Source of the DNA: a virus
Strand: one strand, 5' to 3'
Virus record (IMG/VR): IMGVR_UViG_2864926767_000001
Length of the DNA stretch: 48,126 nt
Below are positions 28,236 to 29,654 of the stretch, in pieces. The translations under genes were made by a program, and so were the position numbers. The stretch's first letter is position 1; each line of letters opens with the position of its first letter. The notes under the pieces were generated by a model. That model ran no database searches. It was not told the DNA's origin and was given only the letters and a program-made list of their open reading frames with translations.

Positions 28236-29654
28236 ATGCAAGACGACAAGAAACGCGCCCTGGCCGCAGCCCTGGGTCAGATCGAACGCCAATTCGGCAA
28301 AGGTGCGGTCATCCGCATGGGCGACCACGAGCGCCAGGCTATCCCCTCCATCTCCACCGGCTCCCTGGGCCTGGACATCGCCCTGGGCATCGGCGGACTG
28401 CCGCGCGGCCGTATCGTCGAGATCTACGGCCCCGAATCCTCGGGTAAGACCACCCTGACCCTGTCGTGCATCGCCCAGGCTCAGAAAAGCGGCCTGACCT
28501 GCGCCTTCGTGGACGCCGAGCACGCTCTCGATCCGGCCTACGCTCAGAAGCTGGGCGTGAACGTCGACGACCTGCTGGTCTCCCAGCCCGATACCGGCGA
28601 ACAGGCCCTGGAAATCACCGACATGCTGGTGCGCTCCAACGCCGTTGACGTGATCATCGTCGACTCCGTCGCCGCCCTGGTGCCGAAAGCCGAGATCGAA
28701 GGCGAGATGGGCGATCAGCACGTCGGCCTTCAGGCCCGCCTGATGTCCCAGGCGCTGCGCAAGATCACCGGCAACATCAAGAACGCCAACTGCCTGGTCA
28801 TCTTCATCAACCAGATCCGCATGAAGATCGGTGTGATGTTCGGCAACCCCGAAACCACTACCGGCGGTAACGCACTGAAGTTCTACTCCTCCGTTCGCCT
28901 GGACATCCGTCGTACCGGTGGCGTGAAGGAAGGCGACGAAGTCGTCGGCAGCGAAACCCGCGTCAAGGTCGTCAAGAACAAGGTCGCGCCGCCCTTCAAG
29001 CAGGCCGAGTTCCAGATCATGTACGGCCAGGGCATCTACCGCACTGGCGAGATCATCGACCTGGGCGTACAGCTGGGTCTGGTCGAGAAGTCCGGCGCCT
29101 GGTACAGCTACCAGGGCAGCAAGATCGGCCAGGGCAAGGCTAACGCCGCCAAGTACCTGGAAGAGAACGACGCCGTCTGCTCGAAGCTGGACAGCCTGAT
29201 CCGCGACAAGCTGCTCAGCAAGAACATCGTTGAACCGCAGGCGCCGGTCGCTGCAATGGCTGCCGCCACTGGCAAACCCGAGCTGGTGGTCGACAACAGC
29301 AACGGCGCTCCGGTCATGGCCGCCAACTCCGGCGACGAAGACAGCTTCGATTCGTTCGAAGCCGACGTGAACCTGGTCGGTGAAGCTGGCCCCCTGGTGC
29401 TGGACTCCTCGCCCCTCGGCGGTTCTGCATCTCCGGAGCCCCAACTGCAGAACAGCGAGCTGCCTCCGGAACTCCAGGAAAAGCCGCTACCGAGTGATGC
29501 CCCTTCCTGGTACAAGGATGGCTTCGCCAGCGGTAAACTGACCCAGAAGGGCCCGTGGGTCTACCTCAACGGCATCACGGTCACTCGTGGCCACGATGGT
29601 GCGATCAAGAAGCTGAGCGAAAGCCCCGAGCTGCGCGCCCAGATCACGGGCTAA
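28236..29654 (+). CDS. recA: RecA recombinase with long C-terminal extension
   Basis: Pseudomonas-type RecA core ([40 protein letters not shown]); GAGGAG SD; 472 aa. Confidence 0.97.

What the first reader, a model, noticed from the sequence alone, without database searches (positions are those of the whole stretch)
29221..29654. RecA with a duplicated C-terminal domain on an acidic, Pro/Ala-rich tether
Seen: after the normal C-terminal domain ([34 protein letters not shown]) comes a ~95-aa low-complexity linker. A second look-alike domain follows from 29508 ([34 protein letters not shown]), matching the pattern G..xK.G.W...G......G...A...L.E. Established: this domain is implicated in dsDNA binding, and the acidic tail modulates filament assembly. 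Inference: a tethered extra domain could change dsDNA capture or SOS co-protease activity, or alter mixed filaments with host RecA.
Basis: partly seen in the sequence, partly recalled or inferred. Interest (0 to 1): 0.7.

Follow-up and report, generated by a model that had tools for sequence, protein, structure and literature searches.

The report
Megaplasmid RecA with second C-terminal domain
This giant Pseudomonas plasmid encodes a complete RecA recombinase that carries, on a ~95-residue floppy linker, a second diverged copy of RecA's own C-terminal domain; the same design recurs in about 15 RecAs of ~1-Mb Pseudomonas megaplasmids (pMPPla107 included), I found no description of it, and it gives a natural variant for testing what that domain does.

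Summary
The gene (28236-29654, +, 472 aa) encodes an intact RecA core and normal C-terminal domain (CTD1). A 94-aa acidic Pro/Ala/Ser-rich disordered linker follows, then a 52-aa terminal domain (CTD2, 29496-29651).

CTD2 is a true, diverged RecA_C homologue:
- Pfam RecA_C is its only hit. It is weak for this copy (E 0.06-0.08), but relatives reach E 8.7e-10.
- Profile-profile comparison gives 98% probability, E 4e-14.
- AlphaFold predicts the same helix, three strands, two helices topology.
- Among 48,161 PDB representatives only RecA stands out (Z 6.3, next 2.9).

The extension is not an artefact:
- About 15 RecAs of 447-490 aa share it, on 0.9-1.3 Mb Pseudomonas megaplasmids including pMPPla107 and pBASL58. 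CTD2 is conserved and the linker is variable.
- A terminator follows the extended ORF.
- An independent soil RNA-library contig spans CTD1 to CTD2 without indels.

The gene lacks the SOS box that the host's own recA has. Its first ~300 codons are mosaic, 96% identical in protein to the host RecA.

Function is inferred only: a tethered accessory domain that modulates how the filament deals with duplex DNA or partners. The two lysines important for DNA capture in CTD1 are not conserved in CTD2.

It is a new variant of a known kind, and I found no paper describing it.

The parts
28171..28198 (+). Sigma-70-like promoter: TTGACA, 16 nt, TAAAAT (11 of 12). No LexA/SOS box nearby.
   Evidence: Promoter scan. 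SOS-box pattern search: no match between 27960 and 28236. Positive control on the host's chromosomal recA.
28224..28229 (+). Ribosome-binding site GAGGAG, 6 nt before the ATG.
   Evidence: Sequence read directly.
28236..29654 (+). recA coding sequence, 472 aa plus stop (protein P0001).
   Evidence: TIGR02012 equivalog 559 bits.
28254..29036 (+). RecA ATPase/filament core (residues 7-267). Walker A GPESSGKT, Walker B and loop L1 (IIVDSVAAL...EGEMGD) and loop L2 ([19 protein letters not shown]) are intact.
   Evidence: Pfam PF00154 E 2.7e-143. Sequence. 95.6% identical to the host chromosomal RecA.
29046..29213 (+). Canonical C-terminal domain CTD1 (residues 271-326).
   Evidence: Pfam PF21096 E 5e-26. 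AF2 pLDDT 91-93.
29214..29495 (+). Disordered acidic Pro/Ala/Ser-rich linker (residues 327-420, net charge -12). Acidic cluster [14 protein letters not shown] at 29328-29369.
   Evidence: Composition. AF2 pLDDT 35-40 with no secondary structure. Poorly conserved in the family (26% mean identity).
29496..29651 (+). CTD2: a diverged second RecA C-terminal domain (residues 421-472). Topology is helix, three strands, two helices. The last helix is 2-3 residues shorter than in relatives.
29669..29699 (+). Intrinsic terminator (8 G-C pair hairpin plus T run), 15 nt after the stop of the extended ORF.

Best explanation
SHOWN. This is a real, intact gene for a RecA recombinase of a Pseudomonas megaplasmid. 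After the normal core and C-terminal domain (CTD1) it has a ~95-residue intrinsically disordered linker and a second, diverged copy of the RecA C-terminal domain (CTD2). The layout defines a small conserved family: about 15 sequence clusters of 447-490 aa on 0.9-1.3 Mb Pseudomonas megaplasmids, including pMPPla107, pBASL58, pPL1 and the FeN3W and PLMAX plasmids. The gene has its own near-consensus sigma-70 promoter and its own terminator. It lacks the LexA box that the host's chromosomal recA carries. Its first ~300 codons are of host-chromosome type, so the gene is a mosaic.

INFERRED. The protein polymerises on ssDNA like any RecA. Its core is 96% identical to the host's, so it probably also co-polymerises with host RecA. 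Each protomer then displays an extra small domain on a flexible tether around the filament. The parent of that domain is the filament's outer dsDNA-contacting lobe. This tethered CTD2 most likely acts as an accessory module that changes how the filament meets duplex DNA or groove-binding partners. It would do so either by weak extra duplex capture or by occupying and screening the groove. Expression is set by the plasmid rather than by SOS.

My odds: architecture and homology about 0.97; 'functional accessory module on an active recombinase' about 0.6; specifically extra dsDNA capture about 0.3.
For: Homology of CTD2 to RecA_C.
- RecA_C is the only Pfam hit for all five CTD2 copies scanned (best E 8.7e-10; this copy E 0.056).
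- FeN3W CTD2 scores 30.4 bits (above the 27-bit cut-off). pMPPla107 gives E 1.2e-4 and pBASL58 E 5.3e-3.
- A CTD2 profile against PDB sequences finds only RecA, in register (E 1e-4 to 4e-4 for single-copy chains).
- The same profile picks the chromosomal RecA_C as its only match at E <= 1e-5 in 38 of 400 other Pseudomonadaceae genomes (28-31 bits).
- hhalign gives Prob 97.5% and 98.2%, E 7.5e-12 and 4.2e-14.

Fold.
- AF2 from the single sequence gives pLDDT 84-87 over the domain. With a small alignment it gives 89-93. The element order is the same as CTD1.
- Every one of the 50 Foldseek entries listed is RecA, with rmsd 1.3-1.7 A over 46-48 columns.
- VIA aligns model residues 18-70 to E. coli RecA 269-321, Z 6.2-6.7.
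- In the unbiased search of 48,161 chains RecA scores Z 6.3, 5.8 and 4.0; the next best is 2.9.
- ESM Atlas feature and structure searches of residues 415-472 also return RecA_C.

Real and conserved.
- Relatives were found.
- Mean pairwise identity is core 86%, CTD1 66%, CTD2 43%, linker 26%.
- GC3 stays in frame, and a terminator follows the long ORF.
- A soil metatranscriptome contig covers 29111-29632 with 4 substitutions (3 synonymous, 1 V378L) and no indel.

Regulation. No SOS box lies upstream here or in the FeN3W plasmid, while the host chromosomal recA has one.

Mixed filaments plausible. The core is 95.6% identical to the host RecA.

Literature. The CTD is the dsDNA-contacting lobe of the filament (PMC4666392; bioRxiv 10.1101/2025.04.21.649820). 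The weak lower hits of the CTD2 model are dsRNA-binding domains (Z 2-3), so the fold class is one that binds duplexes.
Against: - No experiment and no interaction prediction bears on function.
- The E. coli K286 and K302 equivalents are Q437 and H453 here and vary across the family (alignments). Mutation of those lysines impairs strand exchange (PMC4666392, citing Kurumizaka 1996).
- The one conserved basic residue (R451, equivalent to Q300) is lost in pMPPla107 and pBASL58.
- CTD2 net charge ranges from -6 to +4.
- CTD2 evolves faster than CTD1.
- This copy scores below the Pfam cut-off and lacks the last 2-3 residues seen in relatives.
- The RNA-library contig could derive from contaminating DNA.
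Confidence: 0.6

Rival explanations
1. Steric or autoinhibitory brush. The ~100-residue disordered linker plus a 6-kDa domain on every protomer mainly screens the filament groove. This would extend the known negative role of RecA's short acidic tail. It would limit access of dsDNA, LexA/UmuD or RecX-type regulators and reduce filament bundling. The plasmid would then have a recombinase that does not fire, or is not governed by, the host SOS circuit.
For: The linker is acidic here (net -12 to -13) and in P0086 (-14), and is predicted disordered. The K286 and K302 equivalents are not kept in CTD2. The gene is outside LexA control. From established knowledge, the native acidic C-terminal tail of E. 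coli RecA is autoinhibitory.
Against: Linker charge is near zero in several members (0 to -5), so acidity is not the conserved feature. A pure spacer would not need a conserved folded domain at its end (CTD2 43% identity against linker 26%).
Confidence: 0.2
2. Partner-recruitment domain. CTD2 has lost DNA contacts and instead binds a protein. The partner could be a megaplasmid-encoded factor, or RecA itself (for example CTD1 or the N-terminal domain of neighbouring filaments). The domain would localise or bridge filaments.
For: The CTD2 surface evolves fast while the structural glycines and the aromatic residue are kept, which is typical of co-evolving interfaces. A conserved short motif [DE][LM]D.IFG[AS] sits in the linker of six of the twelve full-length members tabulated (and in fragments P0008 and P0010). 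That suggests a short linear binding motif. An unchecked scan note (e1-5894429) describes similar small units on Ala/Pro linkers in a UvsY-like mediator elsewhere.
Against: No partner is identified. Gene neighbourhoods differ between the window and the FeN3W plasmid apart from a distantly related AAA ATPase (35% identity) and a weak match (24% identity) between two ~380-aa hypothetical proteins. The linker motif is degenerate in this member.
Confidence: 0.13
3. Decaying remnant of a partial tandem duplication of recA. The duplicated core piece has degenerated into the linker, and CTD2 is on its way to loss with no function of its own.
For: CTD2 is more diverged than CTD1. This copy is below the Pfam cut-off and C-terminally shortened. 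A RecA with a repeated core-to-CTD segment exists in a metagenome contig (P0012), which shows that such duplications or misassemblies occur.
Against: The domain is retained, open and predicted well folded in about 15 lineages whose linkers have diverged to 26% identity. None carries a premature stop. 3 of the 4 differences in the near-identical soil contig are synonymous.
Confidence: 0.06
4. Chance resemblance or sequencing/annotation artefact: read-through, frameshift or misassembly joining recA to unrelated sequence.
For: For this copy alone the sequence evidence is weak (Pfam E 0.06-0.08; phmmer against PDB E 1.2).
Against: Family-level profile statistics, the fold match, conservation on five named complete plasmids, the independent contig and the terminator position all argue against it.
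Confidence: 0.01

Closest known systems
Canonical bacterial RecA (E. coli, PDB 2REB/3CMW; Pseudomonas chromosomal RecA, TIGR02012)
   Same: The full core, ATPase and DNA-binding loops and CTD1 are present. The core is 95.6% identical to the host's own RecA. CTD2 has the CTD fold.
   Different: 472 aa against about 350 aa. The 20-25-residue acidic tail is replaced by a 94-residue disordered linker plus a second CTD. There is no SOS box. The gene is plasmid-borne.
RecA of pMPPla107, pBASL58 and related ~1-Mb Pseudomonas megaplasmids (NZ_CP031226.1, NZ_CP032678.1, NZ_CP143488.1, CP136011.1, Pseudomonas sp. PLMAX plasmid)
   Same: Same architecture: core, CTD1, a 71-105-residue P/A/S/T-rich linker, then CTD2. 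These are members of the same family.
   Different: Their cores branch outside the chromosomal Pseudomonas RecAs, whereas this one nests beside its host's. The CTD2 of pMPPla107 and pBASL58 is a more divergent subtype (GFFRY/GFYFQ instead of GPWVY). Public records and Smith et al. 2019 (PMC6482414) call them only 'RecA', with no mention of the extension.
RecA of IncP-2-type Pseudomonas megaplasmids (e.g. pNDTH9845, pPniHBP1_1)
   Same: Plasmid-borne second recA in Pseudomonas, 83-85% nucleotide identity over the core.
   Different: Ordinary length (345 aa) with a short acidic tail, no linker and no CTD2. The neighbourhood differs (chemotaxis genes).
Isolated RecA C-terminal domain (PDB 1AA3) and stand-alone 'RecA_C domain' proteins of phages (ESM Atlas clusters)
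   Same: They show that the ~55-residue domain folds on its own. CTD2 aligns to 1AA3 residues 270-321 (Z 4.0). Atlas feature hits for CTD2 are such clusters (a lead only).
   Different: Those are free domains or laboratory fragments. Here the domain is covalently tethered to a complete RecA.

Membership tests
RecA recombinase (TIGR02012 equivalog; Pfam PF00154 + PF21096) | Whole-protein score above the curated cut-offs | tested here: met
   TIGR02012 559 bits (cut-off 325.3). PF00154 476.5 bits and PF21096 91 bits.
RecA recombinase (TIGR02012 equivalog; Pfam PF00154 + PF21096) | Intact Walker A, Walker B and DNA-binding loops L1 and L2 | tested here: met
   [23 protein letters not shown] and [19 protein letters not shown] are present and conserved in the family alignment.
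RecA recombinase (TIGR02012 equivalog; Pfam PF00154 + PF21096) | Recombinase, ATPase and co-protease activity | not testable with these tools
   Needs genetics and biochemistry.
SOS-regulated chromosomal recA | LexA box (CTGT-N8-ACAG) upstream of the gene | tested here: not met
   None within 27960-28236 at up to 1 mismatch. The host chromosomal recA has CTGTATAAGTAGACAG 43 nt upstream. None upstream of the FeN3W plasmid recA.
RecA_C domain (Pfam PF21096), applied to CTD2 | Score at or above the Pfam gathering cut-off (27 bits) | tested here: not met
   This copy scores 13.5-14 bits, E 0.056-0.08. Orthologous CTD2 of the FeN3W plasmid scores 30.4 bits (met). P0010 scores 25.9 bits, pMPPla107 22.6 bits, and the best E in the family is 8.7e-10.
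RecA_C domain (Pfam PF21096), applied to CTD2 | Profile-level homology to RecA C-terminal domains | tested here: met
   hhalign Prob 98.2%, E 4.2e-14 over 47 columns. A CTD2 profile finds only RecA in the PDB and RecA_C in genomes.
RecA_C domain (Pfam PF21096), applied to CTD2 | Fold: helix, three-stranded sheet, two helices, superposable on RecA 270-328 | tested here: met
   AF2 pLDDT 85-93. Foldseek rmsd 1.3-1.7 A over 46-48 columns. VIA Z 6.2-6.7 onto residues 269-321. Unbiased search: RecA Z 6.3 against next 2.9. All of this rests on a predicted model.
RecA_C domain (Pfam PF21096), applied to CTD2 | Conserved dsDNA 'gateway' lysines (E. coli K286 and K302) | tested here: not met
   The equivalents are Q437 and H453 and vary in the family. 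Neighbouring K438 and R451 are basic, but R451 is not kept in pMPPla107 or pBASL58 (alignments). The role of the lysines is taken from PMC4666392.
RecA acidic C-terminal regulatory tail | Short, net-negative, unstructured C-terminal peptide | tested here: inconclusive
   The linker is unstructured and net -12 here. However it is 94 residues long, it is internal, and its acidity is not conserved in the family (0 to -14).

The most novel reading that the evidence does not exclude
The two-CTD RecA is a plasmid device that rewires the host's recombination and SOS system. It is made from an SOS-independent promoter and is nearly identical in core to host RecA. It would co-polymerise with host RecA and decorate the mixed filaments with tethered CTD2 domains. 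That would alter duplex capture and LexA access. It would help a ~1-Mb low-copy replicon to be maintained, and could underlie the host-dependent changes in quinolone sensitivity reported for pMPPla107 (PMC8544880).
Probability: 0.12. Interest if true: 0.8.

Novelty: new variant of a known kind. Interest (0 to 1): 0.55.

Why it matters
What the RecA C-terminal domain does during homology search is still called a key open question in recent time-resolved cryo-EM work (bioRxiv 10.1101/2025.04.21.649820). Nature has here made RecAs with two such domains, one fixed and one on a flexible tether. One family member, on pMPPla107, has been moved into P. stutzeri and P. putida for phenotype tests (PMC8544880). 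Comparing full-length and CTD2-deleted proteins would directly probe duplex capture, groove access and SOS signalling. It would also show how giant plasmids tune host recombination. On the practical side, these genes are labelled plain 'recombinase RecA', or are missing from the plasmid gene tables I saw, so the feature is invisible in current annotation.

Tried and rejected
Tools not available.
The metagenome contexts of P0003, P0008, P0010 and P0011 could not be fetched.
Docking of CTD2 onto the RecA core was therefore not tested.

Searches that found nothing.
- With P0010 alone it found no relative in viral contigs or genome contigs.
- tblastn of this tail against PLSDB and of P0010 against phages gave nothing.
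- The first word-seeded search of residues 325-472 found only the protein itself, because relatives were fragments outside the length band or shared no 5-mers.
- No further RecA_C-like domain occurs elsewhere in the own genome or in the FeN3W genome.

Hits set aside as spurious.
- Six of the nine hits of the exhaustive search (P0002, P0004-P0007, P0009) are WD40 or other repeat proteins that score by many short repeats.
- The Pro-Pro endopeptidase hit (6r5b, E 0.11) is taken as chance.
- P0012 (500 aa) is not a member. It has an exact repeat of a core-to-CTD segment on a 2.5-kb contig, which is probably a misassembly.

Ideas dropped.
- PF27531, listed for this protein in a precomputed column, was suspected to be a tail family. 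It is also listed for ordinary 355-aa RecAs, so it is not.
- The Shewanella plasmid hit is an ordinary 355-aa RecA matched through its CTD1.

Expression. Only one RNA-library contig covers the tail. Contigs cannot show transcript ends, and DNA carry-over is possible, so expression is not established.

Full report
**1. The gene**

The window's ORF 28176-29654 (+) is best read from ATG 28236.
- This start gives the N-terminus [13 protein letters not shown], typical of Pseudomonas RecA.
- It is preceded by GAGGAG at 28224-28229.
- The only strong sigma-70-like promoter in the region is TTGACA, 16 nt, TAAAAT at 28171-28198, matching 11 of 12 positions. It lies upstream of this ATG and inside the longer ORF.

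The product (P0001, 472 aa) is a RecA by every sequence test. TIGR02012 scores 559 bits against a cut-off of 325. Pfam RecA covers residues 7-267 and RecA_C covers 271-326. An 8-G-C-pair hairpin with a T run follows 15 nt after the stop (29669-29689). So the transcription unit is built around the long ORF.

**2. The observation**

After CTD1 come 94 residues (327-420) rich in P, A, S, L and E, with net charge -12. A final 52 residues follow. GC3 remains high and in frame through both parts (0.745 and 0.81), unlike the other two frames. 29508 is W425, the first conserved residue of the last domain.

**3. Is the last domain a RecA C-terminal domain?**

For this copy alone the sequence signal is weak but specific.
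- RecA_C is the only Pfam family hit, in register (E 0.056-0.08).
- phmmer against PDB sequences finds a RecA at E 1.2, in register.

Structure prediction is clearer.
- AlphaFold2 from the single sequence gives helix, strand, strand, strand, helix, helix, with pLDDT 84-87 over the domain.
- Every one of the 50 Foldseek entries listed from the PDB is RecA (46-48 columns, rmsd 1.3-1.7 A).
- VIA-align places model residues 18-70 on E. coli RecA 269-321 (Z 6.2-6.7).
- In an unbiased comparison with 48,161 PDB representatives, RecA entries score Z 6.3, 5.8 and 4.0. The third is the isolated CTD, NMR entry 1AA3. The next chain scores 2.9.
- The ESM Atlas gives RecA_C clusters by features (0.81-0.84, a lead only) and by structure (TM 0.72-0.77 over residues 420-472).

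**4. Relatives settle it**

An exhaustive phmmer search of 1.84 billion representatives with residues 415-472 found three true relatives among nine hits: P0003, P0008 and P0010. All three are C-terminal RecA fragments with CTD1, a long linker and the same terminal domain. The other six hits are repeat proteins.

Further searches gave the full-length proteins P0011, P0013-P0020 and P0086, of 447-482 aa. Several sit on contigs of 0.9-1.3 Mb, and one is named 'recombinase RecA (plasmid) [Pseudomonas sp. PLMAX]'.

Scanning genomes and PLSDB added four complete plasmids:
- Pseudomonas sp. FeN3W plasmid, CP136011.1, 909,734 bp, RecA of 485 aa.
- pMPPla107, NZ_CP031226.1, RecA of 468 aa.
- pBASL58, NZ_CP032678.1, RecA of 462 aa.
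- pPL1 of P. silesiensis, NZ_CP143488.1, RecA of 490 aa.

The statistics at family level are strong.
- Every CTD2 scanned hits Pfam RecA_C and nothing else. The best E is 8.7e-10. The FeN3W copy scores 30.4 bits, above the cut-off. pMPPla107 gives E 1.2e-4 and pBASL58 E 5.3e-3.
- A CTD2 profile finds only RecA among PDB sequences.
- In six-frame searches of 400 other Pseudomonadaceae genomes, its only match at E <= 1e-5 in 38 of them was the chromosomal RecA_C, at 28-31 bits.
- hhalign of 15 CTD2 copies against a CTD1 set gives Prob 98.2%, E 4.2e-14 over 47 columns (six copies gave 97.5%).
- With a six-row alignment AF2 models CTD1 at pLDDT 91-93, the linker (residues 331-414) at 35-40 with no secondary structure, and CTD2 at 89-93 with the same element order as CTD1.

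**5. Not an artefact**

- The layout is kept in about 15 lineages. Mean pairwise identity falls from 86% (core) and 66% (CTD1) to 26% (linker), yet is 43% in CTD2.
- Linkers are 71-105 residues, 37-57% P/A/S/T, with net charge 0 to -14. So 'disordered tether' is conserved, while strong acidity is particular to this member and P0086.
- A soil metatranscriptome holds a 547-nt contig over 29111-29632 with four differences and no indel. Three differences are synonymous third positions in this frame and one is V378L. A second soil run covers 29134-29404. Because these are contigs from an RNA library, transcription is suggested but not proven.

**6. Context, regulation and history**

- The window lies on a 449,926-bp contig of a 7.58-Mb Pseudomonas genome. 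That genome also has an ordinary chromosomal recA of 351 aa.
- The chromosomal gene has a perfect SOS box, CTGTATAAGTAGACAG, 43 nt upstream. The plasmid gene has none, and neither does the FeN3W plasmid recA.
- The plasmid core is 95.6% identical in protein, and about 90% in DNA, to the host's chromosomal recA up to about codon 300. Identity then collapses (71%, 54%, 49%).
- In a core tree, ten of the twelve extended RecAs branch outside the chromosomal Pseudomonas cluster. This one nests beside its host's RecA, and an AU test rejects a single clade of extended RecAs (p 0.003).
- The simplest reading is that an ancestral megaplasmid recA had its 5' ~900 nt replaced by a chromosomal-type recA through recombination. 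The junction lies in the last helices of CTD1, and the plasmid-specific linker and CTD2 were kept.
- IncP-2-type megaplasmid RecAs are ordinary 345-aa proteins, so the extension is not a general plasmid feature.
- None was found in the phage collections searched.

**7. How it probably works (inferred)**

All catalytic and DNA-binding motifs of the core are intact. The protein should therefore form nucleoprotein filaments. Given 96% core identity, it should also mix with host RecA.

In RecA the CTD is the outer lobe of the filament. It contacts incoming dsDNA, and mutation of K286 or K302 impairs strand exchange (PMC4666392, citing Kurumizaka 1996 and Aihara 1997). Its exact role in homology search is still open (bioRxiv 10.1101/2025.04.21.649820).

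A second CTD on a ~95-residue flexible tether would surround the filament with extra copies of this module. I consider three roles: extra low-affinity duplex capture, screening of the groove, and partner recruitment.
- For duplex capture: the fold is retained, basic residues remain next to the old lysine positions (K438, R451, K458/K459), and the weak lower structural hits are dsRNA-binding domains.
- Against it: the K286 and K302 equivalents themselves are Q437 and H453 and vary in the family. R451 is lost in pMPPla107 and pBASL58. CTD2 net charge ranges from -6 to +4.

I therefore commit only to 'a functional tethered accessory module that modulates the filament's dealings with duplex DNA or groove-binding partners' (about 0.6). 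Extra duplex capture is the single most likely version (about 0.3).

**8. Novelty**

Full-text searches found no description of RecA with two C-terminal domains. The pMPPla107 family paper only lists 'RecA' among housekeeping-like genes (PMC6482414).

It is a new variant of a very well-known protein, not a new kind of system. Its interest lies in offering a natural handle on the CTD's function and on how megaplasmids interact with host recombination and SOS.

**9. Limits**

So metagenomic contexts and CTD2 docking were not examined. All structural statements rest on predicted models.

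Noticed in passing
window 28236-29150 compared with L004:1249-2301:-: The plasmid recA is a mosaic. Codons 1 to about 300 are about 90% nucleotide and 95.6% protein identical to the host's chromosomal recA. Identity then drops to about 50%. The core nests among chromosomal RecAs, while other extended RecAs branch outside (AU test p 0.003). This suggests past recombination between plasmid and chromosomal recA.
   Followed up: yes
window 28150-28205: The recA promoter overlaps an 8-bp palindrome TGACGTCA and three ATGAC words. 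This may be an operator for a plasmid regulator. There is no LexA box here, unlike the chromosomal recA.
   Followed up: partly
Linkers of P0011, P0013, P0014, P0015, P0017, P0020, P0008, P0010 (alignment A6, columns ~405-430); degenerate at window ~29440-29475: A short conserved motif [DE][LM]D.IFG[AS] sits inside the otherwise variable disordered linker of about half of the family. It may be a linear binding motif, or a relic of the ancestral acidic RecA C-terminus. It is degenerate in this protein ([11 protein letters not shown]).
   Followed up: partly
P0012 (500 aa, ENA contig of 2,467 bp): A RecA whose segment from [10 protein letters not shown] to the end of the CTD is repeated exactly once in tandem. 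It is either a misassembly or a recent partial tandem duplication. If real, it illustrates how a CTD duplication could arise.
   Followed up: no
PLSDB records CP136011.1, NZ_CP031226.1, NZ_CP032678.1 (L035, L041, L042): The extended recA ORFs are open and complete in the DNA but absent from the distributed gene tables (locus-tag gaps, e.g. P5704_028090). They may be flagged as pseudogenes or lack a protein accession in the source annotation.
   Followed up: partly
window 29720-30259 (+): An AlkB-like 2OG-Fe(II) oxygenase gene (PF13532, E 4e-17) lies directly downstream of the recA terminator. It is a second DNA/RNA-repair-type gene on the plasmid.
   Followed up: no
window 22529-24163 (+) and L031:13642-15435 (+): An AAA ATPase of ~550-600 aa lies a few kb from recA in both this plasmid and the FeN3W plasmid (35% identity over 198 residues). 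In FeN3W, pMPPla107 and pBASL58 recA is divergent from a sigma-70 family gene. Here the divergent neighbour (27013-28033, -) has no Pfam hit.
   Followed up: partly
Another genome (scan note e1-5894429): An unchecked first-reader note describes a UvsY-like protein near a recA with two ~42-aa units ending ...LRWVIEHP and ...LRFMVDNP on Ala/Pro linkers. The endings resemble the RecA_C 'YLxxNP' helix turn. Tethered RecA_C-like modules may recur in recombination proteins of mobile elements.
   Followed up: no
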